Assembly (NCBI GenBank): GCA_936941205.1
Contig: CAKZJF010000082.1
Span: forward strand, 2,536 to 66,535
Direction of reading: 5' to 3'
Length of the DNA: 64,000 nt
Origin: an uncultured Candidatus Altimarinota bacterium
Lineage (GTDB): Bacteria > Patescibacteriota > Gracilibacteria > BD1-5 > UBA2023
The translations under genes were made by a program, and so were the position numbers. Shown in pieces: positions 32,668 through 64,000 of this stretch. Numbering within the stretch: the first letter of the stretch is position 1; each line of letters starts with the position of its first letter. The notes beneath the pieces were generated by a model, which was not told the origin of the DNA, searched no databases, and worked only from the letters and a program-made list of their open reading frames with translations.

Positions 32668-34020
32668 ATGCAAATATTATACTATATATCGATAGCTATA
32701 TTTATATACGGTAACTATAAAATAGTTTTATCGGACTTTAGAGAGAAAAAAATACCTAATAAATATATTGTATTCTTACTGTGTCTTCTTCCTATATACT
32801 ATTGAATACTTCAAATAATGGGGGAATCTATCTCGATTCAAGAGATCTTATTACAAACACTCATTTCAATTCTCATATCATTTTTTTTATATTATTATTG
32901 AATTTGGTCTGCAGGAGATGCGAAATATGTACTTGTACTTTCTTTATTCCTTCCAAATAATGGAATTATTCCTTTTATAGGAAATATCTGACTCATAACA
33001 CTTTTCTACTTATTTGGTTATTTTCTTTATTTTTATTTCTATCGATGCTTATTTGATTGGAAATATACCAAGGAGCTATCAAATAAGGTACTATACGGAA
33101 TAAAAGAATCCATATATTCGTACATATATATTTCAGACAATAAAAAATCACTTCTTATTCGAATTATTAAATACATACTCATCTTTATTATACTCTTTGT
33201 AAGTATACGACTAGTTCGAATGTATTTGTATGAGTATTTCTTTGTTGCACGTGATAATTATGGATACATATTCGAGTTTATTAAAAATAATCCAACTCTT
33301 ATAATTATTACCATACTAGTTACCATCTTTCTAATGAATATACTTATAAGAAAGATGGTAACTATTCTAAAAGAATATATTCATAGTAAATTCTCAAAAA
33401 ACTCTTCTCACTCATATCTCAAGGATATTATCTTCCTGTTCATCTTATATATTCCATTTTGTTCATTTATATGGTATGAATATACTCTTAATCCAAATGA
33501 ACTTACATCACATATATATACCATATTCACATTCTCACTTGCCTTCTTCTTTTTTGCAAAGGTGAGTTATTATATATACACTCTAACCTTTCAGTTATCC
33601 GAAACTGAAATTATTCCGATTAAGAAACTTTCCATCGGAGATATTGTGGATAAGAATTATCTTACAAAGTTATTTTGAGATCAAAAAGCCCTATGATACT
33701 GCCATAATATCAAAAAAGTAGATGAAAATAATGAACAAAAATGACTTCTTCTCTATCCAAGACCAAAAGAATATTTTTCAAATATACATAACCCAATTGA
33801 TGAAGAAGAATGGGCGAAGCTACAAGAAATATATAAAATCGTAAATGATTATCATAGATATATTCCTTGATATGCCTCGGTAGAAAATATCAAAATACTT
33901 CGTACATTTGCTTTCTGATTTTATATATTTCTAGGTTTTCTGATAACTTACTTTCAATGAGATATCATCGCAAGAAAGATTATAACAACATTAATTCAGT
34001 TATTTCATAACAACCTTTAA
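32668..34020 (+). CDS. A24-family prepilin peptidase-like membrane protein with long extra C-terminal domain
   Basis: 450 aa. LSDFREKKIPN (first Asp motif, CpaA/TadV-like) and WSAGDAKYVL (GxGDxKL-like second Asp motif) in a polytopic N-terminal half. ORF 33220-33678 is in frame. Stop TAA 34018-34020. Confidence 0.7.
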
Positions 34021-34955
34021 GATCATATCCTCTGAATAATTTCTAATAATTCAGTTTTTGATACCTTTTGAGGATACACATGAACAAAATCATAGAATTT
34101 CTTCTTTTCATATACTCAAGAACATATTGCATTCAGATCACACTGTAAACAAGAAACATCTTTCTCATGATAAAAATCTGTTTCACGAATTTCTTCACGA
34201 AAATCAAGAAAATGAATAATACGTTCCTCATTTTTTACAATTTTTCTCGTTTCGGTAGAACAATGTTCATATCAACGAATATAGCAGAGTGGCATTTTTT
34301 CTACACGAAAGGTTCGTCATGTGCTCGTTAAAAAATCCATGGCTCGTTTCAATGATGGTTGGAAACTATCAAAATCCGGAATGGTAGATAGTGCCGTGGA
34401 TGTTTTTCTCATCATTTCCGGATCAAGATTATTCCAGACAAAATGTTTTATCTGTGGAAAATATTTTACAAGGAACTGAACGGTTTTATCAAGATGTCCA
34501 CTATTATAGTGATTAATTACTGTATTAATCTGGACGCGTACTCATAATGAAAGAGCATTTGATATTGATCTCATCAATTTTTGATAACTCCCTGGAGTAT
34601 CAGTCAAAAAATCATGTACAGATTCAAAACATGAATAAAGAGAAAAATGTACGAGTTCCAATCATGCAGTGGAAAGCTTCTGTATATAACGAATATCAGC
34701 ACACATCATGCCATTTGAAATCATACGATTTCATAATCCAATTTTCTTAGAATATTCAATCCATTTTGGGAGATTTGGAGATAATGTTGGTTCTCACCCT
34801 GTAAATATCACACCTGAATATTGTTTTGTTTTAAAGTCATTTAATAATTCAATTCATCTTTCGAGTGAAATATTTTTCCCATTCGATGGATTTGAACAAA
34901 AATGGCATCAATTATTACAATGTCGATTTACTTGAATGTATCAAATATTTGCCAT
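34017..34955 (-). CDS. radical SAM protein, twitch/SPASM-like C-terminus (island rSAM 1)
   Basis: 312 aa. VNRHCNNGCHFC (CxxxCxxC), FTGGEPT with a TGA Gly, C-terminal CLQCDLNAICSG (Cx2Cx5CxG). Its stop overlaps the stop of the convergent A24 gene. Confidence 0.8.
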
Positions 34956-34958
34956 GTT

Positions 34959-36230
34959 TTATTGAATAGGTTGTAATATTTTAAATCCATAGGAACGAAT
35001 AAAATTGATATGTATTCACTGACAATTTTTATTATATACACATGAATCACACCTCAAAGATTTCTTTCTATAGAAATCTGAAATATACCTCTTCGTGTAG
35101 CCATCAAGAGTATATGTTTCATCATCATAATCGAGATGAGATGTGAATATTCCAGTTCCTCATAAACATTTTGGAATATTTATAAGTGGCTTTCGGAAAT
35201 TGCGGAGTTTTTCTTGGAATTCTCAAATAGTAAATCCATATTTTTCAAATACCTGACTTGGAAACTCTTCTCAATTTATAACCTCATACTCATTCAATCC
35301 ATTGATTTTTTCGATATGACTATGAGTTATAAAATTATGACAAAACTGTTTCTGAAAACAATAGTTACAAGCATCTCAGTAGCATTGCGGTTTTATTTTT
35401 CCTTTCGATTGAATAAATGGAGCAAACATTTCATAGGATTCGCCCATGACTTCGGATTTTATTTTTCGTGGATCTTGTATAAGGTCTTCATACCCCTCAA
35501 AAGCCTCGGGAGGAAAACGATTTGTCCACATATACATACCGGGAATTTTTGATAATTCCCAGGTTTTTTGAAGAATTTGAATATTGGATTGGAGATCATA
35601 AAATAATGATTCTTTATTTTCTTGAAATCATCGTCCAAATGGAATAATTTGCAAAATATCGTATTCATAGACCCCTATTTTCATAAAAAATTTCACGATC
35701 TCATCCAAATACAAGACATTGAATTTATTTACTACAATATCAATATTCACTATAATATGTGGATAATATTTTTTTATAAATATTAATGCTTTCAAGGATT
35801 TCTTAAAAGCTCAAGGAGTTGCAACCAGATAATCATGCAAGGTTGAATTATGTCCATGAAATGAAAATGTCACCTCATCCAATCATGCATCAAAAACCTT
35901 CTTACAAAAATTTTCAGAAAAAAACATATTCCCATTTGTCACCGTTTGAACTCTACTATATCCGATTTCTTTAGCATATTGGATATATCATGAAAATTTG
36001 GGATTAATACTGGCTTCCCCTCCGGAGATTATAACCCTATTATCATATCCGATTTTATATCAAGTTTTTATTTGATTTCTTATAATATCTTCCTGAGGGA
36101 AAGTCCCATTTTGGGCATCACTATCAAGACAAAATATGCACTTATTATTACAAGCAGAGGCAATACGAATCCATATGCGATTTTGTTTTGTAGTTTTTTC
36201 TTTTTCTAATAAATTTATACGATTTTTCAT
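34959..36230 (-). CDS. radical SAM protein, SPASM-like (island rSAM 2)
   Basis: 423 aa. IASACNNKCIFC, ISGGEAS, CYGDACNYCFQKQFC and CDSCVYNKNCQG. Start taken at the ATG 1 nt after the upstream stop. Stop lies 3 nt before the next ATG. Confidence 0.8.
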
Positions 36231-36231
36231 T

Positions 36232-37197
36232 CTATATTTCTCAAGTAATAGGAATAATAGCTGATTCTCAGAATTGTTCAAAATATATTTTTGGTATCCC
36301 CATACATTTCTGTTGATACACACACTGAGCACATTTTGTTGTTTTCATCATATTTTCATCTCAGACATTTACATCAACACCAATCGGTATCACCTCTCAT
36401 CTATTTATAACTAATTGAGAGAAAAAACAATAAGGTAACTGACAAAATCATCAAAAACCATAATCTATGGTAATATCATTATTAAAACTATGTGGATGTA
36501 AATTAATAAGTTGAACAATACAATCATAAGGCACAAGAAATTTCTTATGATTTGATTTATTTGGATATATAATAGAAAAAACTAAATGTATCCTTCATGT
36601 AAATGGTCAAAAAACCTTTTTTAGGAAAACTAAGTACTCTCAATATTGGTTATAATTATATTTATTTATAACCAAATTAAGTTTTACACTTCAATGTGGA
36701 AAGTTTTGATATAAGTGAATAATTCATTTTATTGCTTTACTATAATGAGTAGACTGAGTCAGCATATTGTATACTTTACATATATGTGAATGAAATGAGA
36801 CAAAGAATCGTATTTTATCTTTATATGGAAGGTATTTTTTTATAAATAATGGCGAGGCAAATAAAACAGCATTTGTCTGTACCTTAATAAAACAGCCATT
36901 ATGATATAAATAATCAATCAAATCATGAAATTGACTATATAAAGTTGGCTCTCATCAGGAAAGACAAAAAGTTATACTATACTCTTTATATTTGGAAATA
37001 GCATAGTTAATAATTTCCTTCAGAATCAGGAATTCAATCTCAGTTTTTGTAAGATTTGTACTACAAAAAAGACATCATTCATTGCAATATTTTGTTATGC
37101 GAATAATATATTCTATCTTATATCCTTGGATATTTATGTTTATATCCCCTATTGATCGATAATAATTAATTATTTCAAGTATCTTAATCTCAGTCAT
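36232..37197 (-). CDS. radical SAM protein, twitch/SPASM-like (island rSAM 3)
   Basis: 321 aa. ITKYCNEGCLFC, LSGGEPT (both Gly TGA), C-terminal CAQCVYQQKCMG. Confidence 0.8.
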
Positions 37198-37906
37198 ATA
37201 TTTGAATTAGGACCTGAATCTGTTTTATTTGTTCTTTAATAATTAGCCTATCTCAATATCCAAGTTTGTAATTCGATAATAGTTCATCGAGTGCATACTT
37301 ATATATTTCATATGTATTATATGGAAAAATATAGGATTCAAGAAAAGAATTCATATAAGCATTACTGGAATTAAGTAGAATTCTTGATAAATCCTTTTCT
37401 CTTGCTCATAATCAATAATCCAGTAAATCAAATATCCCAATCTGACCATGATTTAAGAAGAAATTACTGGGATGAATATTTCAATGAATATAGCTATCTT
37501 TATGAAGTATATTACAGAATAAAGCTAGTTTTTCTGGTTCAATCTGCAGAAATGATTCCATCTTACTATAATTAAGACGAATATTTTCAATCTCAGCATA
37601 GTAAAAACGATTATTTCATATTTTAATTTCTCACTTATAGTCATAAAGAGGAGTACAAATTCCTTTTTTTTGAAGAATATGAAAGTTCGCCTTCTCTCTC
37701 AAATGAAAATTACAAGATACTCACACATCAGACAAGTAATCGGAAGAAAAATAATATTTCATTACAACTTTTCCTCCTAATGGAATAACAATAAATCATA
37801 CATTTGCATATCGTATAGTACAATACTCTCAATATGTACGTCTAATAAATTGCTGTATATTGTTATCACTCTCAAGAATTTTTCGGATATACTGAAGGTG
37901 TATCAT
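37184..37906 (-). CDS. APH/choline-kinase-like phosphotransferase
   Basis: 240 aa. VVMKYY Lys, HGNIHPSNFF (HGDxHxxN-like) and IFDLLDYG (DFG-like). Overlaps both neighbours. An alternative ATG lies at 37939. Confidence 0.55.
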
Positions 37907-38930
37907 TTTGTAAAAAATATAGAATCTTATTAGTTGCATACTCTCTTCCAACAAACTCAATCCAATTCTTATAAAATCACAAGCAATATGTATTATATTG
38001 ACATCATGAACATTCTGGTAGCTTCTCTTTTTCTTTCCATAAAATTTTATAACTCTCTAGATTTCATATATTTATTTTTCTAGAAGATGTATCATCCTCT
38101 AATTTTCTTAATTTTATATATTCCAAATTCAAGATAGGCTCATGAATAATACAAAGTGGAGGAGATGTAAAGTGGAAGTCAGGGTAAATATTATTCTTAT
38201 AGCACAGTGCTAATACATCCTGTATACATCTTATTTGTTCAATAGAGTAATCTAATAAAATATCATCTTGATTTAAGAAAGCATATCAATGAGGCTGAAC
38301 AAATCAAAATGAAATCTTATACGTATTCCTTTCTCCATCATTTGCATCAGGTGTTATGAGTCTTACAAAATTACTTATAATAAGAAATTCAATATAATCA
38401 TATAATCCAAAAAGATTCATCTTAGTAATAACAATATTTAGATTAATACTTATAAGGGTATGAATATTATTTTCATATATATATTTTACCCAATCCGTAA
38501 ATTCTTGAATATTGGTATAACTTCATAATTTCTTATTTATAAAATCATCATGAGAATGATGTGCTAAAAATATATCATCTGCCCCAGAATTTATAAGATG
38601 AAATATGTAATCTTTTTCTTGAAAGAGCCGAATTCCATTTGTTTGTATTTGAATATTTCAAATTCCAATTTTTTTAGCAAGTTGAATATATTTTCACAAA
38701 TTTTTACTTAATGTTGGCTCTCATCATGAAAATGATAAAATCATATATTCACGTTCCTGAGCGGTATATTTCTTGACAAGTGAGAGGATTTGAAATATTA
38801 CCTGTCTTGAGGAAATATCATGCTTTCAAAAATTATTCGTCTTTGAAACATTACAAAATTTACATCTCCAATTACATTTATAGGTAACTCGGATAATCTC
38901 ATTGATGTAAATACGTTCGATATTTTGCAT
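37863..38930 (-). CDS. radical SAM protein, twitch/SPASM-like (island rSAM 4)
   Basis: 355 aa. VTYKCNWRCKFC, FSGGEPT (TGA TGA at 38721-38726), C-terminal CSGCQYNTYCLG. Confidence 0.8.
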
Positions 38931-39872
38931 TTAATTCAGTATTGGATTAATTTCATCAAGACCATACAGCCATTCATAGTGAATGAGTGGTCACCAACAT
39001 TTTCAGTAATACTTACAGTTATTACATTTATGACACCAAAACCTCTCTCGTGGAATATCCTCCTTTTTATCAAAAGAACCCCTATTTAATATATTTCAAT
39101 CATAGGTAATCTTCATTCTATTTTCATAGTCAAAGTCATCTGTGATTTGAATATATTTTTCTCTTTCAGTGGATGGAAAAATACAATACGGTATATCTGC
39201 AATTTTGAGATGAATATCCTTTTTCTTGCAGTATTCAATAATTGGTAAAATCTCCTTCATACATTCGGAATACTTTGGATTAATCCTTTCGAGTATATGC
39301 TCTTTTGAATAATAATCTCTCATAACATCTGGATATGTGATCGCAATATTTCTCACTCACTGGATTTCAAGAAATTTCACCAATTCAAAAAGAGAATTTT
39401 TATTATCTTGAGTAATTACTATATTTGCCTTCAAAAAATTTCATCTCCAATATTTCTTAATATTTTCAAAAACCCCATCCCAACGTACAAAATTATTGGT
39501 GCGAGAAATCTTCTGTTGTTCCTCTGATGAAATAGCTTCAACTGATAAAAACAACTCATCAATATATGGAAGAAACTTTTTTGCTTGGTTATCAATATGA
39601 AGAGTAGATGCATTCGTTGTTACTAGGATTGTGTAACCTAAAAGTTTTCATAATTTTAGTGCATCTAAGAATACTGGCTGAATAAATGGTTCTCCACCAA
39701 GATAGGTTACATGATTATATCATTCTCTCTTATACTTAAGAAGCTTCTTTAAAATATCCTCTTTTGTTACACGTATTTTCCAAGCTTTCTCCATATTTGG
39801 ATACTCGATACAATAAGTGCATTTTTGATTACATGTCCATCCAACGTAGATTTCAAGTCGTTTATGATTCAT
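38931..39872 (-). CDS. radical SAM protein, twitch/SPASM-like (island rSAM 5)
   Basis: 313 aa. VGWTCNQKCTYC, LGGEPF, IPYCIF and CHKCNNCKYYGKCWG. Stop TAA directly abuts the next ATG. Confidence 0.8.
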
Positions 39873-40771
39873 TATTTATGATTGAGATATACCGAAAAAT
39901 AATCCATAAGTGCATGAAGCTCCTTTTGTCCATCAACCTTCTGATATATAACTTTTTCAAAATCCTTCAGCACATCTCGAAAAATATTTAATTGTTTCTC
40001 CTGAATATCCGTAAGCAAGATCTCTTTTCCTTTTCAAAGAAAAAGAGGTCTTGAAAGTTTCTTTCAGAGGTATGTAGAAACTATATCACTATAGTACACC
40101 TTCTCATCAATATCAATAAAAAGTGATTCATTGATTAAGGATGTATTGTATCCATCATTTTTCATAAATCCATATAATATAATATCGTGTGCGTATGAGA
40201 AATCAAGTATCTTTTTCATTACCATGGCCAAATTAGATAAATCTTGCTTACTCCATGAGGCCGTAAAATACACAGGAAGAATATTAAATCATTTTATTCC
40301 CATTTCTATAAGTTTTAAAAACTGTTCATAGGCCATTCATTCTTTCCCCGGAGAAATTACAAGATTCATAAATAATCGATCGATAAGATTACAACTCTGT
40401 GCAATTGACATTACTTTCTCATAACAAAAATTATTTTCTTGATCAATACTAAAAAAAATTCGTGAAAAGTAGGTATCAAGTCATTTCCCTATTTCATGGG
40501 TCAGAAGACTGGTATTTGTTACGATTTCATATTCCCATGAATGATGAATATTTAATTTCTGTATAAAACTCACAATATTTTCCCAAACAATTAATGGTTC
40601 TCCGCCAAAAAATTTTACAGATCAAATGGATGATTTATTGTTTTCTAAAAAAATTGAAAGAGCTTCATATCACTGAAGAGGAAGAATTTTTCAATCCTTT
40701 ACAACATTACAGTAAGAGCAATTAAAATTACACGCGGTGGTGGTATGTATAATGATATTATATTTCTGCAT
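39872..40771 (-). CDS. radical SAM protein, core only (island rSAM 6)
   Basis: 299 aa. TTACNFNCSYC and FGGEPL. No C-terminal Cys cluster. Paralogous to 49507-50505. TAATG overlap with the next gene. Confidence 0.75.
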
Positions 40772-41582: not shown

Positions 41583-41584
41583 AA

Positions 41585-52698: not shown

Positions 52699-52701
52699 TA
52701 C

Positions 52702-52732: not shown

Positions 52733-52833
52733 ACATTCATAGGATAACGAAAGGCAAAACCATCCTCTTTAAAAAAGAGAATAAGAAATAGTATTTTCTC
52801 AATTTCTTCAAATAATTTCTTCATAAATATATA

Positions 52834-55143: not shown

Positions 55144-56127
55144 TTATTTATCAAAAAATTGTTCACAAACATTGCAACTATAGCAGTCTTTTGGACATTT
55201 TCTGAGTTTAGCAAAAAAAGAGAGTCGAGTTAATTTATCATTATCAATGTAAGGGATATTTTGATATGGAAAATCAATAATATCTTTTAAATCTCCATGA
55301 TAAGTTCAAGCTATATATGCATCTAACATTTTTCTAATTCGCTCAGTTGATTCTGGTCTTGTATCCAATTTAAATACATCAACAATATCTTGATAATGAA
55401 TAAGATCTTCTGGTCGAATAAACGGTGCTCGAAAAATTAATTTTCGATTCTTGTGAACCATTGGCACACAAGAATAATCTTCAATTAAATTATACTTTCC
55501 ATTGTGAATTCTCTCTTCTGTATTGTAATCCACCCGATGTGCAGCAATATTAAAATGTGTATGTCTATATGGGCAGTTAGAAAAACATCCTTCATTTAAT
55601 AGCATTTGAATTGGAAGTCATGTTCGATCTTTTATATTTTTTATCAATTCAATATCTCGATTTATATCTCGATCAATCGTTAAAATATCAATTCATAAAT
55701 CTTTAAAATATATTGCCTGTTCTACGGATTTTAAATAACAATTAATTGACGAATAAATAATAATCTTAGGAAGTGCTTTTCGAAAAAAGGGAGCATATAA
55801 CATGTTAGTCAGTGTGATTGAGGTTAATCATCGCATATGAAGCTTTTTTATGAATTTTATAAGCTTCAACATATGAAATTTATCTCAGGTATTTTCACCC
55901 TCACAGGTTGCATTCATTATCAAGATGGTATCTATCCCATATTTATTACATGTATCAATTACAGAATATAATGCAACCTCTTCATAATCATTCATCTGTA
56001 TTTCATCTCTTCATGAATTTCCAAGAGAATATGGTAATGGTAAATACACTGAACTAATATGATCCTTATAATCATCTATGAGGGCAAAAAAATCGGGCTT
56101 CTGATTAAATCAAATGGAGAATTTCAT
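55144..56127 (-). CDS. U32-family-like protein (TIM-barrel with Cys motifs)
   Basis: 327 aa. ORF 55305-55605 is in frame. Layout ..IYSSINC..LGIDILTIDRDIN..IQMLLNEGCFSNCPYRH parallels the U32 E.F.HGALC....G.C region but is diverged. C-terminal CPKDCYSCNVC. Confidence 0.45.
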
Positions 56128-56136: not shown

Positions 56137-57252
56137 CTAAATAGTAATATCAATATTATACTTATGCTGCAGTTTCTTTAAAAGAATAATTTTTTCTTTT
56201 ACATCAGATGATTCAAAATCATTTCCATATATATTATTAATATCTGAATATTTGAAATAGAAAGTTTTGTCGTAGAATTGTAATAGTTTTAAAGTATCAA
56301 CAAATTCTTCTAATGTTTCTTGAAAATAATTAAAAATTATATGATTACAAAGCTCAATCTTTGAATTTCTTCGCATATCTAATAAATTCTCCATGAGCCT
56401 ATCTATACTATATCAACGCTTCATAAGAGATAATATACGTGGTGAAGTATGTTGAATAGGAAGAAGCATATATGGTATTCTACCATTAAATATATATTTC
56501 TTTAAAGACGGGTAATATTTTAGAAAGAAAACAGGATTAATATTTGTAATATATATACGAATTGATTCATGTATCGAAAAAATCTTTTCAACCAAATCAA
56601 CAAAAGTAGTCCCCATATCTATTCCATAACTTCCACAATCATCAGAAAGTAAATAAAAATCTGTTTTTCATTGTTGAAAATCTTCCTTTACCTGATCCAT
56701 TATATCCTGAATAGCAAGACTCTTGGTGGCTCATTTAATTTTCTTAATATTACAGTAAGAACAATTGAACTCACATCATGTAGATATCTCAATGAAAGAT
56801 TTACTTTCAAAATTACCAAGCAACTCACCATATTGCTTAAAATCATTATCAGTATCTAGGATGCTAATCTTGTTTTTAAAAGAATAACTCTCAACTTTTT
56901 TTAGATTTATCTTATACTCAAAATAACTCTCAACGGCAACATGGTTTTTCGAATCTATATAATATAATTCATTTCCATATCGTTCCCGAATACTATTACT
57001 AATACATCCAATCAGTATAATTCTTTTATTTTGTTGAAGGTAATAATCAATCTTTTGAAATGTTTCATCTAAAAAACCACTATTCACTCAGCATAAATCA
57101 AGTAAAATTAATTGGCATGAAGCAAAATCTTTCACCAATATATAATTATTAATTACAAGAAAATTATAAATCTTTACAAATTTATTATCCGAAAGAATAC
57201 AGTCATTTGAAATACGGTCAATAAATATCTTTTCTGAGTTTGTGAATACCAT
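56137..57252 (-). CDS. MiaB-fold radical SAM protein (paralogue 1 of 4)
   Basis: 371 aa. ORFs 56137-56394, 56413-56616 and 56776-57087 are in one frame. ISTGCEFNCSYC and LPIQHTSPRILSLMKRGY (MiaB/RimO-like PxQSGS..L..M.R.Y). Confidence 0.8.
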
Positions 57253-57430: not shown

Positions 57431-58684
57431 ATGAAGAAAATATTTATCTGATTTGGAACATGACCAGAGCAAATTATATTCCACCAAGCAACTCTCCTAT
57501 ATAATTTTTTTCTTATAAATGGATATACCCTTGTGAAAGAAGCAAAACTGGCTGATGTCATTTTTTTATGCTGATATCCATTTAATAATCATGAAGAAAC
57601 AAGAGTTCTGCTTACCTTAAATTACTATCTAAAAAAGTATCCAAATACCGATATTATTGCCTTTTGACACCTCGCTGATATGATTCAGGGAATGAACGAA
57701 TTCTGAAAACTGAAAGTAATATGATTATATCAATCAAAGAGAATAAATACCTTATTTCCACATACCATACCAATAGAAGAAATACACGTAGAAAATTATC
57801 GATTCTTTATACCTCTAAAAATTGATAATTTATATATTTGAGATTTTTGATATGATATCTCTATTAAGACAAACTATATACTTCGAGAAGATGAACTCAA
57901 TATATCAATCGATACACTCAGAAATTGAGGAGTATCAATCAGTTGAATAGAAGAGTATGAGGAAAAATATTGTTATCTGGAAGATAAGACCAATAACATT
58001 TATATACAAACCTCATATGGCTGTGCATTTAAATGTTCATATTGTGTTATTAATAGTGTATGATGAGTTATTAGTAGGCCAATGGATGAGATTCTAAAGC
58101 AAATACAAAAATGAATTGAAGCAGGAAAAAAATCCGTTTATATTGTTGATCAAGATAGTGGAAGTTATGGTATTGATATATGACTTGATTTTGCTGATTT
58201 ACTCAACAAAATTAATAAAATACCTTGAGATTTTGATATACGTATTTATTATTTTGAACCGTCAAGATTTTTAAAGCTCTATAAAAAAATAAATGTTGAT
58301 ATTCTCACAAGAAGGTTAGCATTTCTGAATATTCCCATACAAACCACCTCACAGAGAATACTTACTCTTATGAATCGGAATTATGATATCACTGAAGTAT
58401 TAAATATTATTCGGAAACTTCGCAGAATTAACATGAGGATTCGACTTGAAACCATTGTAATGTATGGGTTCCCTACGGAAACATATGATGAATTTATGGA
58501 ATATCCAAAAATACTTCCCTACTTTGATCATATAGAATTCTTACGATATTCGGAAAGGCCATGAACAAAATCAGTAAAATTATGAGGAAAAATACTATAT
58601 GCTGATATGGAAAAACGATTTTCTATCATGTGAAAACTGAAAGAAAAATTTCCAACCAAAATAGATTATTGTATGGAAATATAA
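57431..58684 (+). CDS. MiaB-fold radical SAM protein (paralogue 2 of 4, only plus-strand gene of the island)
   Basis: 417 aa. ORF 58370-58564 is in frame. TSYGCAFKCSYC and IPIQTTSQRILTLMNRNY. Confidence 0.8.
58339..58408. repeat. 70-nt patch, 69/70 identical to the reverse complement of 59004-59073
   Basis: acaaaccacctcacagagaatacttactcttatgaatcggaattatgatatcactgaAgtattaaatatt, with a single A/G difference. Confidence 0.9.
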
Positions 58685-58694: not shown

Positions 58695-60002
58695 CTAATA
58701 ACAACTTGCCAGTATCTTTTTCCGTTCTCTTGGACTTCATATAACTGGATCGATCTTATCACCAAATTTTTGCTTCATTTTTAGAATTACCAAAGATTTC
58801 CTGAGAATTTCTTCATGGGAATTTTTTTGCATGTTATAAGTTTTTGTTCACTTTTTATCTGCGTAACATAGAAAATCAGTACAATCAAAATATTTTAATA
58901 ATCGAAAATAATCAGAAAACTCATCATATGTTTCAGTAGGAAAGCCATAAATAACTATAGATCAAAGCAAGATACTAGTATTATACATCTTTATTTTCTT
59001 ACAAATATTTAATACCTCAGTGATATCATAATTCCGATTCATAAGAGTAAGTATTCTCTGTGAGGTGGTTTGTAATGTAATTCGAGCATATGATACTTTA
59101 TTTTCCCAAAATTCTGGAGCTATCCTATGAAAATTCTCTACAAGATGCTTGGGTTCAAGATAATAGAATTTTATATGAAAATCTCAAGGTATTTCATTGA
59201 TTTTATTTATGAGAAAAGCAAAATCAAGTCATATATCAATACCATAACTTCCAACATCTTCATCAATAATGATAATATTTTTTGCACCTATAGATACGGC
59301 ATGTTGAATATCGGAAATAATATCATCGATTGGAAAACTCTTTGTATATCAAGAAACCCGCTTAATTGCACAATAGGAACAATCAAATCCACATCCCCGT
59401 GTAGTTTCTATATAAAAGTTATCAATTGAATCTTCCATATAATTATAATCTCATGGATATTCTTCTATGGTATTATTTTGATATGTTCCATCAATGATTG
59501 AATCAATAGTTATTGAGAGATCATATTCTGATATTTCATAATTTGTTTCCAGTTTCAAATTACTTCATAATGCATTATGAAGTAAATCTCACAAAGAAAC
59601 CTCTTCGAGTTTTAATGGAATAAAGAAACGTATTCTTCATACATGAATATCTTTTATGGAAATAGTACCATGAAAAATGGTATCAAATTTTTCGTATTCA
59701 GAATATGAAATATACATGAGTCATGGTATGCGTTTTATACCATATATCATATTTGGTGCAGATCCGAACACAATAATCTTTTTATCTTTATAGGTATTCA
59801 GATAATAATAGAGAGAAAGAAGGACAAGTTTTTCTTCATAATTATCAAATGGATATGCATTCAATAAAATATAGTCTGCATCTTTTGCATTTTTTACTAA
59901 TTTGTATCCATTTTGAATCAGAAATTCATATACAATAGTTGATTGAAATCACACTTGACTATGCTCAGCTCAACTTGCACTTCAAATAAATATAGTAGAC
60001 AT
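58695..60002 (-). CDS. MiaB-fold radical SAM protein (paralogue 3 of 4)
   Basis: 435 aa, frame spot-checked. TTRGCGFDCSYC and ITLQTTSQRILTLMNRNY. Convergent with 57431-58684, with stops 10 nt apart. Confidence 0.8.
59004..59073. repeat. inverted partner of the 58339-58408 patch
   Basis: Reverse complement matches 58339-58408 at 69/70 positions. Confidence 0.9.
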
Positions 60003-60023: not shown

Positions 60024-61325
60024 CTATATATCTCTCTTTTGAAAAATATGAATTCCTTGGTGTAAGGTTTCATTTTTATCAAATATTTTTGTAAGAAAAT
60101 GTTCCTTCATTTTCCAAAGAAAGACCAATCTTCGAATCATTTCTTCTTTTGGTATTTTGCCCATAAAGAATGGAGATTGTGTTCATTTTCGATCCGAGTA
60201 ATACCAAAACCATACTTCATCGAAATAATTAATAACCTGAAAATATGTTTTAAATTCATCGAATGTTTCTGAAGGAAATCAATATATAAACTGGGTTGTT
60301 ATTATAATATTTGGATTGATACGTTTAATCTCCTGTGTAATACTAAGAACATTTGGTATATTATAACTCCTATTCATGAGCTTTAAAATTCTCTGTGACA
60401 TCGTTTGTAGCGGAACACAAAAATTAATAATCCTATTCCATATGGCTGGGTCAATTGTATGAAATAATTTCTCTAGCCTCCCTGGTTCAAAATAAAATAT
60501 TTTCAAGCGAAAATTTCATTCTATTGCATTAATTTCATTAAGGAGTTGAGCAAAGTTTTTTCAGATATCCAATCCATAACTTGCACTATCTTCATCAATA
60601 AAATGAAAGATAGTATATCAAAGTCATAATCATCGTTTTATTTTTCTTAAAATAATCTCTGTTGGGATGCTTTGAACAAATCCAGCTATACTTCTAATAT
60701 CACAATACGAACAATGTCATCCACATCACGTACATATCTCTAATGGATACTCACCTGTTTTATCAAGTAAATAGTTATATTTCTCAGTATTATATTCGGA
60801 AATTCGATCAATTGGATAATTTCATGCTTGTATAGCATCAAAATCTATAGATAAATCCTCCTGTGAGAATATATATCTTGATTCAATATTCGCATCAAGA
60901 TATCAATATTTATCAATATTTAAGCTTTCGATATTTAATGGAATAAAGAAACGGAGAGTATCAACCTCAATATTATGTATAGAAATACTTCGCATAAAAA
61001 GTGCATCAAATTTATCTTTTTCTTTTAATCATATCATTTGAATTCTGGAAATCCCTTGCAAATATGGCATCATCGCAGGAATTGATCCTATAAGAACAAT
61101 ATTTGCATTCGGATAGCGAACTAAATAATAATTAATAGTTAATAAATTTATTTTCTCTTCAAACTCTTCGAAAGGATATCCATTCAATACTATAATATCA
61201 GCATTGATTGGTGATGAAATCAATGTATATCCATTTTGTTCAAAAAAATTATATACAACAGTGCTTTGATAAGCACAAACTTTATGTTCACTTCAACTTC
61301 AACTTCCAATAAAAACATTTTGCAT
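60024..61325 (-). CDS. MiaB-fold radical SAM protein (paralogue 4 of 4)
   Basis: 433 aa. ORFs 60279-60506 and 61029-61223 are in frame. CTGCGGHCSYC and VPLQTMSQRILKLMNRSY. Confidence 0.8.
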
Positions 61326-61334: not shown

Positions 61335-62081
61335 TTAATCACATCATCCATCAAGAAATAAAGTTGTACCATTTACAAATGAGGAATCATCACTTGCCAA
61401 AAATATAATTGACTTAGCAACCTCTGTAATCTTTCAGAATCTTCAAAGATATATTGTATTGTCATCATCCTCTGAAGAATCTCATGTTGGATTTTCATAA
61501 TCTCTGTTATCAATATTACCAGGGGCAATAGCATTTATTCGAATATTTGGTCAAGCAATTTTTGCAAATTCTTTTGTAAGTACAATGATTCAAGCCTTGG
61601 AAATATCATAATCAATAAGGTCTGATGAAAAATGTTTTATTCCCTGAAGCGATGAAAGATTAATAATTTTTCATCAAATAATTTGTCTATCCAGCATTCG
61701 TCTTAAAACATACCGTGTACACAAAAATGTACCAAGAAGATTGGTATCTATGGTTTTTTTCCATTGTTCAACGGTTCTTTCAAAAATGGGAACTTCCTGA
61801 GAAAATCATGCATTATTTATACAAATATCTATTTTTCCAAATTGTTCTATTACTCAATCTACCATGGATATAACATCTCATTCTATGGAAACATCACATT
61901 TCACAGCTATAGCATGTCATCATAATCGAGATATCGTATCCACCACAACAAATGCTTCTTTCTCGGAAGTAAGATAGGTAATAACTACCTGTGCTCCTTC
62001 TTTTCAAAAATATAAAGCTGTTGCCCTTCATATTCAACGAGCACCACCAGTAATCACGACTATTTTCCCTTGAAATTGCAT
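61335..62081 (-). CDS. short-chain dehydrogenase/reductase (FabG-like)
   Basis: 248 aa. VITGGARGIGRATA (two Gly are TGA), NNAG, YDISK (YxxxK) and IAPG. Confidence 0.85.
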
Positions 62082-62090
62082 ATAAAACTA

Positions 62091-62756
62091 TTAATGAATA
62101 CTTCGATACAACATAAAAGATTCCGCATATGGAAGTCAACTTTCCATTCATCGAATACGAGCCAATGTTTCCAATCATTCGATATTTCGTGCATATGGAA
62201 AAGATTGATTTTCTGATATATAAAGCTGAAATAATTGCTTCTTATAATCAAGAAAATCACCAATATCTTCATAATGATTTGGGAGAAATTGATCCTTTCC
62301 TATAGATAATTCTGTCGAAGAAAGAATTTCAAAGAGATAAATTTTCTTAATAAAATGAAACCGTTCAATCGGCCGAAGAGCAGTAATTACAGAACGAGCT
62401 GTTAAAGCATGATCTATATTCAAATCATTATAAAAGTGTGTATATATAACACTTGGCTCTATCTTTTGAATTACCTTTTCAATCGATTGTATAATGGTAA
62501 GAAGTGGAATGGTATCGAAACCAGTATCTGGAAAAAATTCTTGAAAAACTTCATCAATTCATAGTTGTGCTACTATCCTTTGAAAACATTCCAATCGAAT
62601 ATTTTTTTTCTCTTCTTTTCTTGCATTTCATGGTGAAGACAAGAGCAAGATATTAACACTATAGCCCTGTTGTATTAATTTACAAATAGTTCCACCCATT
62701 CATAAAACTTCATCATCGGGATGAGCTATTATTATGAGAATCTTCTTATCATTCAT
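62091..62756 (-). CDS. PIG-L / LmbE-family deacetylase
   Basis: 221 aa. ILIIIAHPDDEVLGMGGT signature. ORF 62175-62423 is in frame. Confidence 0.8.
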
Positions 62757-63744
62757 ATTTTCATTCAAGTAAATGAACTAAATTTCACTCAAGAACCTTT
62801 CGTGATTGTTCTGTCATAGGTGTATGATTCTCATAGGTTCAGAATCACTCTGACATATCTACTTTTGGGAAATTTCAAGTATGTCGTCCAAGTATATCAA
62901 GCAAAAAATATGAGTCATTTAAAAAAAGTATATCACTCGATTCATTCCTTGAAATAAGTATTTCATCCTGTTTTTCTCAATTTCTCATGCCTATTTGTAG
63001 TATTTCTTCATTTCACCTTCAGTAAAGACCAATCATGCATTCGGTTAAATCTTTTAAAGAAATCACTCTTCATCTATGAATAAATATCTCTCAACCAATA
63101 CTTGTACAAAAAGAGAAGTAAATCAAATCAATAATCTCATTGATAGTAATATAAAATCGTCTGGTATTGGGATTTGTGATAGTAAGGGGTCGATGATTCA
63201 TGATTTGATGAAACAATACTTGTACCACACTTCCATTACTTCATAAAACATTACCGGCACGAAGAACTGAAAATATTGTTTCTTTTTGGTTTACATTTGC
63301 ATGAATACATAATTGTTCTCATATTGCCTTCGTATTACCGTAGAGATTATATGGATCAACTGCTTTATCTGTAGAAACATAGAGCACCTTTTTTACTTTA
63401 TTAAAAATAGCGGCATCGATAAGATTTTGAGTACCCTGGACATTTATTGATATGGCCTCTTCTGGGTTTTCCTGACATTTTGAAATATGCTTCAATGCCG
63501 CTAAATGAATAACATAATCTACTCAATGGAGCACCTTTTTAAGAAGTTCTCAATTTCTTATATCTCAGAGGACAAATTGAATCTTTGAAGAATGCATTAT
63601 TCGTTCCATTTGCACTTGTCTATCTTCCGAACGAGACAATACAATTACTTTCTTTATCTGATATTTTTCAAGTAAAGATTGTACGATAGCCTGTCACCAA
63701 GTTCCTGTTCATCAAGTAATGAGAATAGTTGTATTATGAAACAT
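62746..63744 (-). CDS. NDP-sugar 4,6-dehydratase of the PseB/FlaA1/CapD type
   Basis: 332 aa. ILITGGTGTWG, GDIRN, HLAALKH..ENPEEAISINVQGTQN, STDKAVDPYNLYGNTK and RAGNVLGSNGSV. Confidence 0.8.
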
Positions 63745-63746
63745 AT

Positions 63747-64000
63747 TTATTTGGTAAATAACTCATTCTGTTTGGGTATCTGAGTTTTAATAAGATAGGT
63801 GTAATAATAATTATTATTATTCAAATAGGAAATAGTTTTTAGGATATACATTACGTATTTAAATTCTTTGTATTCAAAACCATTTTCTCTTGTTTGATGA
63901 AATTGATGTCATATTCTCATAAACTGATATATTCAAGCAAGATTTATATTTCAACAAAGTATCTCCAAAAAACGATTAAATACCATATCAACAGAACAAT
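63747..64000 (-). CDS. 3' end of an upstream gene (partial, runs off the window)
   Basis: Open frame, with TGA read as sense, ending at TAA 63747-63749, 2 nt before the dehydratase ATG. No family recognised. Confidence 0.5.

What the first reader, a model, noticed from the sequence alone, without database searches (positions are those of the whole stretch)
34017..64000. 30-kb island in which 15 of 28 genes are radical SAM enzymes: candidate undescribed tailoring pathway
Seen: intact CxxxCxxC plus GGEP-type motifs in the CDS starting at 34017, 34959, 36232, 37863, 38931, 39872, 40758, 44794, 49507, 51409, 53917, 56137, 57431, 58695 and 60024. Most neighbours are 0-26 nt apart or overlap (TAATG, stop-inside-start), which implies co-translation in long operons. 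Interspersed genes: a carbamoyltransferase, an APH-like kinase, a PPDK_N-like protein, two ATP-grasp-like paralogues, a U32-like protein, a TPR lipoprotein, and a PIG-L deacetylase, SDR and NDP-sugar 4,6-dehydratase. Not seen: precursor peptide, transporter, glycosyltransferase, aminotransferase. Established: dense SPASM/twitch rSAM sets occur in RiPP maturation and in heavily tailored sugar or cofactor pathways. Inference: I do not recognise this gene set as any described pathway. It may build a multiply modified peptide whose precursor lies elsewhere, or a nucleotide-sugar-derived surface glycan, possibly for the giant surface proteins or pili of this lineage.
Basis: partly seen in the sequence, partly recalled or inferred. 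Interest (0 to 1): 0.9.

Follow-up and report, generated by a model that had tools for sequence, protein, structure and literature searches.

The report
Giant HXS-type radical SAM maturation locus
The 30-kb island is real, and it is the tailoring part of a 37-kb locus with 18 radical SAM genes, an expanded Gracilibacteria version of the His-Xaa-Ser (HXS) protein-maturation system; its repeat-protein precursor and a glycosyltransferase lie about 4 kb and 0 kb past the window edge.

Summary
**Observation: confirmed.**
- TGA encodes glycine (code 25).
- 34017-64000 holds 27 complete genes plus one cut gene.
- 15 have CxxxCxxC and all 15 pass Pfam Radical_SAM.
- Most gaps are 26 nt or less.

**What it is.**
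- The set is co-conserved in at least 22 other code-25 (Gracilibacteria-type) loci.
- In most, it follows a His-Xaa-Ser core on the same strand: HxsD, HxsD-like, HxsB, HxsA.
- A sister-assembly contig (99.76% identical over 5.3 kb) continues the array past the window end. It adds a GT2, two rSAMs, a second U32-like gene, HxsA ((HGS)5-RW tail), HxsB (508 bits, cut-off 370), HxsD-like and HxsD.
- That head has no HxsC. The only HxsC-type enzymes are six paralogues inside the window.
- So the island is the tailoring array of one ~36.7-kb, 35-gene, 18-rSAM HXS-type locus.

**Known and new.**
- HXS is a four-gene antiphage system characterised in E. coli (2026).
- I found no paper describing this expanded form, which adds a carbamoyltransferase, RimO-like and HemN-like rSAMs, a sugar branch and orphan proteins.
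- The chemistry and biological role are inferred.

**Verdict:** new variant of a known kind; high interest.

The parts
63747..64000 (-). C-terminal 84 codons of a 484-aa family-2 glycosyltransferase (cut by the window end)
   Evidence: Open frame (frame 2). The full gene is in L030 7312-8766. PF00535 43.2 bits against a cut-off of 23.3. It ends 2 nt before g27.
62746..63744 (-). g27: PseB-like UDP-GlcNAc 4,6-dehydratase
   Evidence: PF02719 259 bits. TIGR03589 PseB 263 bits, below the cut-off of 408.
62091..62756 (-). g26: PIG-L family deacetylase
   Evidence: PF02585 82.6 bits. 55% identical orthologue in L001.
61335..62081 (-). g25: short-chain dehydrogenase/reductase
   Evidence: PF13561 192 bits. 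52% identical orthologue in L001.
60024..61325 (-). g24: MiaB/RimO-like rSAM; the N-terminal cluster cysteines are lost and there is no TRAM domain
   Evidence: PF04055 50.1 bits. TIGR00089 167.7 bits, below the cut-off of 251. Cys map.
58695..60002 (-). g23: MiaB/RimO-like rSAM, paralogue of g22 and g24 (42-47% identity)
57431..58684 (+). g22: MiaB/RimO-like rSAM, the only plus-strand gene of the array
   Evidence: PF04055 72.4 bits. Closest solved relative is RimO 4jc0, E 6e-25.
56137..57252 (-). g21: MiaB/RimO-like rSAM that keeps N-terminal cysteines (18, 46, 54, 83)
   Evidence: PF04055 62.3 bits and weak UPF0004. TIGR00089 136.9 bits, below 251. Cys map.
55144..56127 (-). g20: U32-like protein with a C-terminal Cys-rich motif; a paralogue sits next to HxsA beyond the window
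   Evidence: PF01136 16.4 bits, below threshold. PDB 5d88 E 0.037. 46% identical to the L030 U32-like gene. Found in 6 loci.
53917..55059 (-). g19: rSAM, PapB/anSME-like, without a clear auxiliary-cluster motif
   Evidence: PF04055 41.8 bits. PapB model 104.5 bits, below the cut-off of 340.
53835..53909 (+). tRNA-Cys(GCA), antisense to the array, in its only large gap
   Evidence: ARAGORN. Rfam tRNA 40.9 bits.
52834..53715 (-). g18: predicted TPR lipoprotein (LTSC lipobox)
   Evidence: TPR_1 28.7 bits and TPR_6 26.4 bits. N-terminus.
51409..52824 (-). g17: HemN/HemW-like rSAM
   Evidence: PF04055 65.9 bits. TIGR00538 115 bits, below the cut-off of 325. 52% identical orthologues in L001 and L002.
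50532..51476 (-). g16: protein of unknown family
   Evidence: No Pfam, NCBIfam or PADLOC hit. Weak homologues in L005 and L007.
49507..50505 (-). g15: rSAM without auxiliary cysteines; its family, shared with g07, is present in 21 of 23 loci
   Evidence: PF04055 54.1 bits..
48255..49526 (-). g14: protein of unknown family
   Evidence: No hit in any library.
46184..48253 (-). g13: O-carbamoyltransferase of the TobZ/NovN/GdmN type
   Evidence: PF16861 197 bits plus PF02543 71 bits. PDB sequence hits at E about 1e-46. Orthologue model pLDDT 87.5, Foldseek to TobZ and GdmN at E about 1e-37. Found in 13 loci.
44794..46176 (-). g12: SPASM-type rSAM (C-terminal CxxCx5C) with a 110-aa N-terminal extension; the most conserved gene of the array
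   Evidence: PF04055 60.6 bits. 52-67% identical in 22 other loci.
43554..44801 (-). g11: orphan protein, paralogue of g10; N-terminal FPYC...CxxCx5C motif and an invariant C-terminal His
   Evidence: No family hit. PDB profile search empty. Family has 19 clusters among 1.84 billion representatives.
42334..43560 (-). g10: orphan protein, paralogue of g11
   Evidence: 4 clusters among 5.8 billion proteins. AF2 model pLDDT 38.6, unusable.
41585..42340 (-). g09: stand-alone PPDK_N (ATP-grasp type nucleotide-binding) domain protein
   Evidence: PF01326 73.8 bits. Closest solved relatives are rifampin phosphotransferase / PEP synthase, E 1e-8.
40758..41645 (-). g08: HxsC-type rSAM paralogue (C-terminal CxxCx5C); present in 20 of 23 loci
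   Evidence: PF04055 57.9 bits. Gracilibacteria HxsC profile E 2.5e-22..
39872..40771 (-). g07: rSAM without auxiliary cysteines (family shared with g15)
   Evidence: PF04055 31.5 bits, marginal. 46-53% identical orthologues.
38931..39872 (-). g06: HxsC-type rSAM paralogue
   Evidence: PF04055 69 bits. HxsC4 model 73.3 bits over its full length. HxsC profile E 9e-37.
37863..38930 (-). g05: HxsC-type rSAM paralogue
   Evidence: PF04055 62.9 bits. HxsC profile E 5e-32.
37184..37939 (-). g04: possible APH-like kinase (weak)
   Evidence: PF01636 21.8 bits, below the cut-off of 23.2.
36232..37197 (-). g03: HxsC-type rSAM paralogue
   Evidence: PF04055 45.2 bits. TIGR03977 HxsC is its best NCBIfam hit at 60.9 bits. 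HxsC profile E 5e-27.
34959..36368 (-). g02: HxsC-type rSAM paralogue with a long Cys-rich C-terminal extension; its start overlaps g03 by 137 nt, so the true start may lie downstream
   Evidence: PF04055 56.8 bits. HxsC4 model 120.9 bits. HxsC profile E 1.6e-47.
34017..34955 (-). g01: HxsC-type rSAM paralogue, the last gene of the array
   Evidence: PF04055 76.1 bits. TIGR03977 HxsC 94.7 bits, below the cut-off of 268. HxsC profile E 3.9e-40.
32668..34020 (+). g00: 450-aa prepilin-peptidase (A24) homologue, convergent with g01; a conserved neighbour of the array end, and not shown to be part of the system
   Evidence: PF01478 33.1 bits. Same position in L004, L007, L008, L010 and L018.

Best explanation
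**What it is**
The island is the tailoring array of one very large HXS-type (His-Xaa-Ser) radical SAM protein-maturation locus of a code-25 Gracilibacterium.

**Layout of the whole locus**
It runs on the minus strand from about 6.7 kb beyond the window end down to 34017, in this order:
- HxsD, HxsD-like, HxsB, HxsA;
- U32-like, rSAM, rSAM, GT2 (outside the window; the last 84 codons of the GT2 lie inside it);
- the 27 genes inside the window.

**Shown here**
- The gene content and the family assignments at the stated scores.
- Continuity of the array across the window edge.
- The presence of HxsA, HxsB and HxsD at the head of the locus.
- The absence of any HxsC-type gene at the head.
- Six HxsC-type paralogues in the window.
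- Conservation of this linkage across many genomes.

**Inferred mechanism**
1. HxsA is made ribosomally. It has a conserved basic/hydrophobic leader and a C-terminal His/Gly/Ser-rich region ending in (HGS)5-RW.
2. HxsB, with HxsD/HxsD-like as partner proteins, and the six HxsC-type paralogues (g01, g02, g03, g05, g06, g08) install radical-mediated modifications on the H-x-S motifs. In E. coli, HxsB, HxsC and HxsD are all needed for a +8 Da modification of one SHRSS motif.
3. The other rSAMs add further C-H functionalisations such as methylation, thiolation or cross-links. These are SPASM-type g12, the g07/g15/g19 group, HemN-like g17, and RimO-like g21-g24.
4. Non-radical steps add an O-carbamoyl group (g13), an ATP-dependent activation or phosphorylation (g09 with the orphans g10/g11, and possibly g04), and a hydroxylation (U32-like g20).
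5. A small sugar branch (PseB-like g27, SDR g25, PIG-L g26) makes a 6-deoxy-amino sugar that the GT2 puts on serine.
6. The product is exported to the cell envelope. By analogy with E. coli HXS it may act there as a barrier to phage DNA entry. Its near-universal, chromosomal presence in the lineage also fits a housekeeping envelope role.
For: **The head of the locus**
- L030 is 99.755% identical to window 58696-64000. It continues the same strand with GT2, 2 rSAMs, U32-like, HxsA, HxsB, HxsD-like and HxsD, with gaps from -119 to +30 nt.
- HxsB scores 508.5 bits against the TIGR03978 cut-off of 370.
- HxsA carries the Gracilibacteria leader and (HGS)5-RW.
- The window's own last 254 nt encode the C-terminus of that GT2, so the join is real.

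**The array is tied to the head**
- No HxsC-type gene exists in the head.
- Six window genes match the Gracilibacteria HxsC profile at E 1e-22 to 1e-47.
- HxsC or HxsC4 is the best NCBIfam hit for g01, g02, g03 and g06.
- HxsC is essential in E. coli (PMC13128918).

**Conservation of the linkage**
- Loci anchored on g12 in 19 GTDB species, plus others, show the same families. At least 8 of them include the Hxs head on the same strand.
- Starting instead from HxsB, 3 of 3 new loci have the HxsD, HxsD-like, HxsB, HxsA head followed by variable tailoring genes.
- Five contig lengths are shared between the carbamoyltransferase and HxsB hit lists.
- Core families are present in 20-22 of 23 loci.

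**Other support**
- All 15 rSAMs are intact.
- The closest solved relative of g22 is RimO, an enzyme that modifies a protein.
- A natural carbamoyltransferase-rSAM fusion exists (P0024).
Against: **Direct evidence is missing**
- HxsA, HxsB and HxsD are not inside the window. They come from a sister assembly of the same population, whose other end is chimeric with phage-like DNA.
- No modification chemistry is shown for any enzyme here.

**Scores below curated cut-offs**
- No window rSAM reaches any NCBIfam curated cut-off.
- HxsD (40.6 against 50) and HxsD-like (39.2 against 41) in L030 fall just below theirs.
- HxsA matches the HxsA3/HxsA4 models only below threshold.

**Features that point elsewhere**
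- Gracilibacteria HxsA lacks the peptidoglycan-binding domain of the E. coli effector.
- The closest solved relatives of g13 act on sugars or small molecules.
- A tRNA gene on the opposite strand and one inverted gene (g22) interrupt the array, so it is not one transcript.
- PADLOC gives only generic rSAM-core hits.
Confidence: 0.75

Rival explanations
1. Two neighbouring but independent systems. One is a small Hxs core. The other is a separate rSAM-rich pathway that builds a heavily tailored nucleotide sugar, aminoglycoside-like compound or surface glycan. In that pathway PseB-like, SDR, PIG-L and GT2 would start the route, the rSAMs would tailor the sugar, a TobZ-like enzyme would carbamoylate it, and APH-like and PPDK_N-like proteins would phosphorylate it.
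For: - The sugar genes are embedded in the array with 9-nt gaps.
- All solved relatives of g13 carbamoylate sugars or small molecules.
- g02 hits the sugar-modifying rSAM BlsE weakly (35.6 bits).
- PIG-L deacetylases and APH-type kinases occur in aminoglycoside pathways (own knowledge).
- L028 has a DegT aminotransferase beside the Hxs head.
Against: - The head has no HxsC, and the only HxsC-type genes lie in the array.
- The rSAM families of the array follow HxsA in many genomes that have no sugar genes at all, for example L018, L003 and L027.
- Of the sugar genes, only PIG-L and the SDR recur, and only in L001; PseB-like g27 has no match in any other fetched locus.
- No aminotransferase, cyclitol synthase or second glycosyltransferase is present.
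- RimO-like and PapB/anSME-like enzymes are typically protein or peptide modifiers.
Confidence: 0.15
2. The chemistry is the same as in the best explanation (maturation of HxsA), but the role is not phage defence. The product would be a constitutive envelope or surface component of these episymbiotic, cell-wall-poor bacteria, for example a metal-binding, adhesive or structural His-rich coat. This is a rival only at the level of biological role.
For: - HxsB is very widespread and 61-78% identical across at least 120 Gracilibacteria clusters.
- The head sits next to the ATP synthase operon or ribosomal protein genes, not in mobile contexts.
- The array end sits next to the same prepilin-peptidase gene in many species, which suggests vertical inheritance.
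- The (HGS)n tail varies from 4 to about 35 repeats and lacks the basic residues and the peptidoglycan-binding domain of E. coli HxsA.
Against: - The only experimental datum for the family is antiphage activity (PMC13128918).
- The tailoring set varies greatly between species, as expected for genes under conflict-driven diversification.
Confidence: 0.4
3. The island is an artefact: chance Cys motifs, mistranslation, or a degenerate array of pseudogenes.
For: - The region has low GC (0.27) and many paralogues.
- The table-11 reading is fragmented.
Against: - All 15 pass Pfam thresholds under code 25.
- TGA sits on invariant glycines.
- Orthologues are 43-78% identical in other genomes, with motifs intact.
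- No frameshifts were seen.
Confidence: 0.01

Closest known systems
HXS antiphage system of E. coli and other Pseudomonadota (HxsD-HxsB-HxsC-HxsA; Li et al., Nat Commun 2026, PMC13128918; NCBIfam TIGR03976-03979)
   Same: - The head has an HxsD-family protein, an HxsB that passes the curated equivalog threshold, and a secreted-looking protein with tandem His-Xaa-Ser repeats.
- HxsC-type rSAMs with a second Cys cluster are present.
- The genes are co-directional and tightly packed.
   Different: - About 35 genes and 18 rSAMs instead of 4 genes and 2 rSAMs.
- Six divergent HxsC paralogues, all below the TIGR03977 cut-off and located at the far end of the locus.
- The order is D, D-like, B, A rather than D-B-C-A.
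- HxsA has no peptidoglycan-binding domain, and its repeats are HGS rather than basic-rich.
- It adds a carbamoyltransferase, RimO-like and HemN-like rSAMs, U32-like proteins, a sugar branch with GT2, and orphan proteins.
- It is in Gracilibacteria, whereas 99.7% of described systems are in Pseudomonadota.
- It sits beside housekeeping genes.
Variant Hxs families curated in NCBIfam (HxsA3 NF038309, HxsA4 NF038313, HxsC4 NF038332, HxsD-like NF038315)
   Same: - The leader of the Gracilibacteria HxsA matches HxsA3, and its tail matches HxsA4.
- The small ORF matches HxsD-like.
- g02 and g06 have HxsC4 as their best hit.
   Different: - All of these matches are below the curated cut-offs, so this is a further, uncurated branch.
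- These models exist only as annotation rules. I found no paper describing such multi-paralogue systems.
RiPP pathways with several rSAM enzymes acting on one precursor, such as polytheonamide (own knowledge, not tested here)
   Same: A ribosomal precursor with a repetitive core is modified many times by rSAM enzymes, together with other tailoring enzymes encoded in the same cluster.
   Different: - Those pathways use one to three rSAMs iteratively.
- Here there are 18 distinct rSAM genes from at least five subfamilies, with old paralogy (21-30% identity).
- The precursor is a 134-aa protein, not a short peptide.
TobZ/NovN/GdmN/VtdB O-carbamoyltransferases
   Same: g13 has both Pfam domains and the same fold.
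   Different: - The known enzymes act on antibiotic sugars or macrolactams.
- Here the enzyme is embedded in a protein-maturation locus, and in one relative it is fused to an rSAM domain (P0024).

Membership tests
HXS (His-Xaa-Ser) system | HxsA: a protein with tandem His-Xaa-Ser repeats encoded in the locus | tested here: met
   - Not in the window: no (HxS)x2 in any frame of the island, and no hit to the HxsA profile.
- Present about 4 kb beyond the window edge, on the same strand, in the 99.76%-identical contig L030. It is 134 aa and ends in (HGS)5-RW.
- It matches NCBIfam HxsA3/HxsA4 only below cut-off.
HXS (His-Xaa-Ser) system | HxsB: SPASM rSAM passing TIGR03978 (cut-off 370 bits) | tested here: met
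   - L030 12030-13520 scores 508.5 bits.
- No HxsB inside the window; there is only a weak g15 match, E 4e-11.
HXS (His-Xaa-Ser) system | HxsC: rSAM passing TIGR03977 (cut-off 267.9 bits) | tested here: not met
   - Best window scores: g01 94.7, g02 72.3, g03 60.9.
- Core-position HxsC of sibling loci is equally low, at 79 bits.
- Six window genes match a clade-specific HxsC profile at E 1e-22 to 1e-47. They are divergent paralogues, not equivalogs.
HXS (His-Xaa-Ser) system | HxsD: small protein passing TIGR03976 (cut-off 50 bits) | tested here: inconclusive
   - L030 HxsD scores 40.6 bits, below the cut-off.
- The sibling L003 HxsD scores 55.5 bits and passes.
- Pfam PF27806 is recorded for the siblings.
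- Nothing HxsD-like lies inside the window.
HXS (His-Xaa-Ser) system | Four-gene architecture D-B-C-A (more than 99% of described systems) | tested here: not met
   About 35 genes in the order D, D-like, B, A..., with the C-type paralogues at the far end.
HXS (His-Xaa-Ser) system | HxsA carries a peptidoglycan-binding domain | tested here: not met
   No Pfam domain in the L030 HxsA at E up to 0.01.
HXS (His-Xaa-Ser) system | Blocks phage DNA entry | not testable with these tools
   This needs infection experiments. PADLOC 2023 has no HXS model and gave only generic pVip-core hits.
Radical SAM superfamily (PF04055) | CxxxCxxC cluster motif and a Pfam score at or above 29.5 bits | tested here: met
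   All 15 genes qualify, at 31.5 to 76.1 bits.
SPASM/twitch rSAM subgroup | C-terminal auxiliary Fe-S cluster domain (PF13186/TIGR04085) | tested here: inconclusive
   - No PF13186 hit at E up to 0.01 for any window protein.
- A C-terminal CxxCx5C motif is present in g01, g02, g03, g05, g06, g08 and g12.
- It is absent from g07, g15, g17, g19 and g21-24.
MiaB/RimO methylthiotransferases (TIGR00089) | Subfamily cut-off of 251 bits, an N-terminal three-Cys cluster domain, and a C-terminal TRAM domain | tested here: not met
   - g21-24 score 137-171 bits.
- No TRAM hit.
- N-terminal cysteines are kept only in g21.
- They work-alike candidates at best.
HemN/HemW class rSAM | TIGR00538 (cut-off 325) or TIGR00539 (cut-off 205) | tested here: not met
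   g17 scores 115 and 102 bits, covering only the N-terminal half of the models.
NodU/CmcH/TobZ O-carbamoyltransferases | Carbam_trans_N plus Carbam_trans_C domains and the Kae1-like/YrdC-like fold | tested here: met
   - PF02543 71.4 bits and PF16861 197.4 bits.
- Foldseek to TobZ and GdmN at E about 1e-37, TM 0.64-0.79.
PseB (UDP-GlcNAc 4,6-dehydratase, inverting) | TIGR03589 cut-off of 407.75 bits | tested here: not met
   - g27 scores 263 bits.
- It is a member of the broader PF02719 family at 259 bits.
PEP-utilising phosphotransferases (PEP synthase, PPDK, rifampin phosphotransferase) | ATP-grasp domain plus a phosphohistidine swivel domain | tested here: inconclusive
   - g09 is the ATP-grasp domain alone (PF01326 73.8 bits; PDB hits).
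- A swivel domain in g10/g11 was suspected from a 'TSHYKIISKELG' motif.
- It was not detected by Pfam, by a PDB profile search or by an exhaustive profile search.

The most novel reading that the evidence does not exclude
Gracilibacteria as a lineage carry a chromosomal, vertically inherited but hypervariable HXS-derived mega-locus. It uses up to 18 different radical SAM enzymes, plus carbamoylation, glycosylation and orphan enzymes, to turn a His-Gly-Ser repeat protein into what would be the most heavily radical-modified ribosomal product known. In about 1-Mb genomes, some 3% of the coding capacity would go to this single envelope product. Its species-specific decoration would then be a main interface with phages or host cells for these episymbiotic bacteria.
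Probability: 0.35. Interest if true: 0.85.

Novelty: new variant of a known kind. Interest (0 to 1): 0.75.

Why it matters
- **New enzymology.** Typical RiPP or protein-maturation clusters have one to three rSAMs. Eighteen in one locus, from at least five subfamilies with ancient paralogy, points to a long series of distinct radical reactions on one repetitive substrate. That would be a rich source of new chemistry. It could also help identify the still undefined +8 Da HxsC/HxsB modification.
- **Reach of the HXS family.** The family would extend from a four-gene defence cassette of Proteobacteria to a lineage-wide, chromosomal feature of a candidate-phyla-radiation group.
- **A testable question.** How do ultra-small, recoded, host-dependent bacteria build their envelope and resist phages? 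These genomes invest a large share of their coding capacity here.
- **Practical lesson.** The precursor and the glycosyltransferase were missed only because the window ended 4 kb too early.

Tried and rejected
1. **Contig look-ups with my own translations.** The window's own 106-kb record was never shown.
2. **My error.** I read the last 256 nt of the window as intergenic. That was wrong: frame 2 is open and encodes the GT2 C-terminus.
3. **Swivel domain in g10/g11.** I suspected a phosphohistidine swivel domain. It is not supported by Pfam at E up to 5, a PDB profile search or an exhaustive profile search. The AF2 model was unusable at pLDDT 38.6, so no fold search was run on it.
4. **Precursor inside the window.** There are no H-x-S repeats, no leader-like ORF and no convincing small ORF. 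The only odd gap is a tRNA-Cys.
5. **Giant upstream proteins or pili as substrates.** No H-x-S repeats and no link beyond neighbourhood.
6. **Contig-length trick.** Looking for contig lengths 106174 or 971203 in the HxsB hit list was inconclusive, because the list is cut at 120 hits.
7. **PADLOC.** Only generic pVip rSAM-core matches.
8. **Literature.** I searched for Gracilibacteria, Absconditabacteria or CPR together with radical SAM. Nothing describes these arrays.
9. **Left end of L030.** It has GC 0.43, uses the standard code and encodes a podovirus tail-adaptor homologue. I treat it as an assembly chimera, not as evidence of a prophage.
10. **Prepilin-like site in the HxsA leader.** KG|FLTDE has G at -1, F at +1 and E at +5. 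I considered it because of the conserved A24-peptidase neighbour. I rejected it as evidence, because the hydrophobic segment does not follow the site directly and the leader also matches HxsA3 below its cut-off. It remains a speculation.

Full report
**1.

The window has 31.8% GC. Its ORF coverage is 24 kb with TGA as a stop and 112 kb with TGA as sense. TGA codons fall on the invariant glycines of the SDR TGxxxGxG motif, the Rossmann GxxGxxG motif and the rSAM GGEP motif, so the code is table 25.

Under that code, 34017-63744 holds 27 complete genes. The last 254 nt of the window hold the C-terminus of a 28th gene.

- All 15 exceed the Pfam Radical_SAM gathering score.
- Gaps run from -137 to +26 nt, with three exceptions. 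One is 201 nt and holds a tRNA-Cys on the opposite strand. One is 84 nt. One is the 178-nt divergent region between g21 and g22, the only plus-strand gene.
- GC falls from about 0.36 to about 0.27 at 32 kb.

**2. What the genes are**

No rSAM reaches the curated cut-off of any NCBIfam model. The sub-threshold pattern and an all-against-all comparison give five groups:

| Group | Genes | Features |
|---|---|---|
| HxsC-type | g01, g02, g03, g05, g06, g08 | HxsC or HxsC4 is the best hit for four of them; all have a C-terminal CxxCx5C motif |
| SPASM-type | g12 | 110-aa N-terminal extension; the most conserved gene of the set |
| No auxiliary Cys | g07, g15, loosely g19 | PapB/anSME-like |
| HemN-like | g17 | matches only the N-terminal half of the models |
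| MiaB/RimO-like | g21, g22, g23, g24 | no TRAM domain; only g21 keeps N-terminal cysteines; closest solved relative of g22 is RimO |

Paralogues are 21-30% identical, so they are old. The exception is g22-24, at 42-47%.

The other genes are:
- **g13:** a TobZ/NovN/GdmN-type O-carbamoyltransferase. A confident model of its orthologue matches TobZ and GdmN at E about 1e-37.
- **g09:** a stand-alone PPDK_N ATP-grasp domain.
- **g10/g11:** two orphan paralogues. The family has 4 clusters among 5.8 billion proteins and 19 among 1.84 billion representatives. It has no Pfam or PDB relative.
- **g04, g20:** weak APH-like and weak U32-like proteins.
- **g18:** a TPR lipoprotein.
- **g14, g16:** two proteins with no hits.
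- **g25, g26, g27:** an SDR, a PIG-L deacetylase and a PseB-like dehydratase.

**3. Relatives elsewhere**

The carbamoyltransferase search found full-length relatives only in Gracilibacteria-type assemblies. Their neighbourhoods are syntenic with the island.

A scan of GTDB species representatives with the g12 alignment gave 19 loci. All read TGA as sense, even within GGEP.

Across 23 distinct loci, each covering only ±10 kb:
- g12, the g07/g15 family and g08 are present in 20-22;
- g13, g05 and g06 are present in 13;
- g02 is present in 10.

**4. The key link**

In L003/L014, L005, L006, L011, L013, L018 and L022, the array starts with five genes:
- an HxsD-family gene;
- a 61-71-aa HxsD-like ORF;
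- a ~500-aa rSAM;
- a protein ending in (HGS)n-RW, with n from 4 to about 35;
- an HxsC-type rSAM.

In L003, HxsD (55.5 against 50) and HxsB (489 against 370) pass the curated thresholds.

The reverse test used three HxsB genes on long contigs I had not seen. In all three the same head was followed by variable tailoring genes: 8 or more rSAMs in L027; an aminotransferase, an Asn synthase homologue, a carbamoyltransferase and 2 rSAMs in L028; and 2 rSAMs, an FkbO-like protein and a halogenase-like protein in L029.

HxsB is very common in Gracilibacteria. The 120 listed clusters are all at least 61% identical, and NCBI already names many of them HxsB.

**5. The window itself**

Profiles built from these relatives find no HxsA, HxsB, HxsD or HxsD-like gene anywhere in the 64 kb. 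They do hit six island genes as HxsC-type, at E 1e-22 to 1e-47.

An exact-match scan for the window's terminal 50 nt found a contig from a sister assembly, L030. It is 99.755% identical to window 58696-64000. On the same strand, with gaps from -119 to +30 nt, it continues as follows:

| Gene | Size | Evidence |
|---|---|---|
| GT2 | 484 aa | PF00535 43.2 bits; its C-terminus is the window's last 254 nt |
| rSAM | ~300-326 aa | passes PF04055 |
| rSAM | 306 aa | passes PF04055; g07/g15-like |
| U32-like | 331 aa | 46% identical to g20 |
| HxsA | 134 aa | conserved leader plus (HGS)5-RW |
| HxsB | 496 aa | TIGR03978 508.5 bits against 370 |
| HxsD-like | 71 aa | 39.2 bits against 41 |
| HxsD | 188 aa | 40.6 bits against 50 |

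This corrects my own misreading, where I took the window's last 256 nt for an intergenic region.

The head contains no HxsC-type gene. The only HxsC-type enzymes of the locus are therefore the six in the window. HxsC is essential in the E. coli system, so the array and the head are functionally tied.

The whole locus spans about 36.7 kb, with 35 genes and 18 rSAMs.

**6. What is known**

The HXS system was characterised in 2026 (PMC13128918):
- It has four genes, in the order D-B-C-A.
- 99.7% of known systems are in Pseudomonadota.
- HxsB, HxsC and HxsD mature HxsA by N-terminal processing and a +8 Da change on one SHRSS motif.
- Mature HxsA sits in the periplasm and blocks phage DNA entry.

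The paper mentions no expanded or CPR variant. Literature searches for rSAM arrays in Gracilibacteria, Absconditabacteria or CPR found nothing.

NCBIfam holds variant models (HxsA3, HxsA4, HxsC4, HxsD-like). The Gracilibacteria proteins match them only below threshold.

**7. Best explanation and rivals**

| Reading | Confidence |
|---|---|
| The island is the tailoring array of an expanded HXS-type locus that modifies HxsA many times | 0.75 |
| Two adjacent but independent systems, the array making a tailored sugar or small molecule | 0.15 |
| Artefact | excluded |

The steps of the best explanation are inferred from family resemblance only. They are radical modifications by HxsB, the HxsC paralogues and the other rSAMs; carbamoylation; ATP-dependent activation; hydroxylation; and glycosylation with a 6-deoxy-amino sugar.

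For the rival, the sugar genes and the substrate range of TobZ-type enzymes speak in its favour. Three points speak against it: the head lacks an HxsC, the same rSAM families follow HxsA in genomes without sugar genes, and the sugar genes are rare among the loci.

The biological role is open, between phage defence by analogy and a constitutive envelope component. The second is suggested by the lineage-wide, housekeeping-adjacent location and by the non-basic HGS repeats that lack a peptidoglycan-binding domain.

**8. Limits**

- The head of the locus comes from a sister assembly, not from the window.
- That contig's other end is joined to phage-like DNA with the standard code. The join is probably a chimera.
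- The junction that matters here is vouched for by the window's own GT2 fragment and by synteny with L001.
- No chemistry is demonstrated.
- g10, g11, g14 and g16 remain uncharacterised.

Noticed in passing
window 53835-53909 (+): A tRNA-Cys(GCA) gene lies antisense in the only large gap (201 nt) of the minus-strand rSAM array, between g18 and g19. It must split the array into separate transcripts. The same arrangement appears in the near-identical contigs L023 and L024.
   Followed up: partly
window 57431-58684 (+) and L030 1-2260: g22 is the only inverted gene of the array and a 42-47% paralogue of g23 and g24. In the sister contig L030 the sequence diverges from the window exactly at the g22/g23 junction (window 58695/58696). 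What follows there has GC 0.43, uses the standard code and encodes a podovirus-type tail-adaptor homologue, 36.5% identical to phage DSL-LC04. This is probably an assembly chimera.
   Followed up: partly
window 32668-34020 (+) and the HxsA leaders in L003, L018, L022, L027-L030: A long (450-aa) prepilin-peptidase homologue is the conserved convergent neighbour of the array end in at least 6 species. The invariant HxsA leader '...KKIKG|FLTDESGK...' has G at -1, F at +1 and E at +5, like a class-III signal, although the hydrophobic segment comes 15 residues later. A processing link is pure speculation.
   Followed up: partly
window 1-32000 compared with 32000-64000: GC drops from about 0.36 to about 0.27 at the start of the locus. 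Upstream are housekeeping genes (ribosome recycling factor, GatA-like, HisS-like), a tRNA-Leu at 18267-18350, and three giant T/S/G-rich secreted proteins of 1627, 1274 and 1738 aa.
   Followed up: partly
window 42334-44801 (-), g10 and g11: This orphan family is confined to this clade (19 representative clusters among 1.84 billion). Its N-terminal 'FPYC...CxxCx5C' stretch resembles the C-terminal Fe-S module of the HxsC-type rSAMs. It also has an invariant C-terminal His in 'H-Y-x-I-x-x-x-E-x-G'. In L003 only a 111-aa N-terminal fragment remains, next to an 88-aa PPDK_N fragment.
   Followed up: partly
L026 6571-9249: A natural fusion of the carbamoyltransferase with an rSAM domain (P0024, 892 aa) occurs in a related array. 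This suggests the two activities work on the same substrate.
   Followed up: no
L027 1-9800, L028 1-9200, L029 1-9200: In three genomes the Hxs head lies directly downstream of housekeeping genes: the ATP synthase operon in L027 and L028, and ribosomal-protein and IF3 genes in L029. This is a fixed chromosomal context rather than a mobile defence island.
   Followed up: no
window 36232-36368: g02 and g03 overlap by 137 nt as called. The N-terminal ~45 residues of g02 are probably not translated, with the true start likely downstream.
   Followed up: no
L012 (CALNYL010000009.1): One genome keeps only the U32-like (g20-type) gene and the g12-type rSAM as an adjacent pair, with no other array genes nearby. 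This may be a minimal functional couple or a remnant.
   Followed up: no
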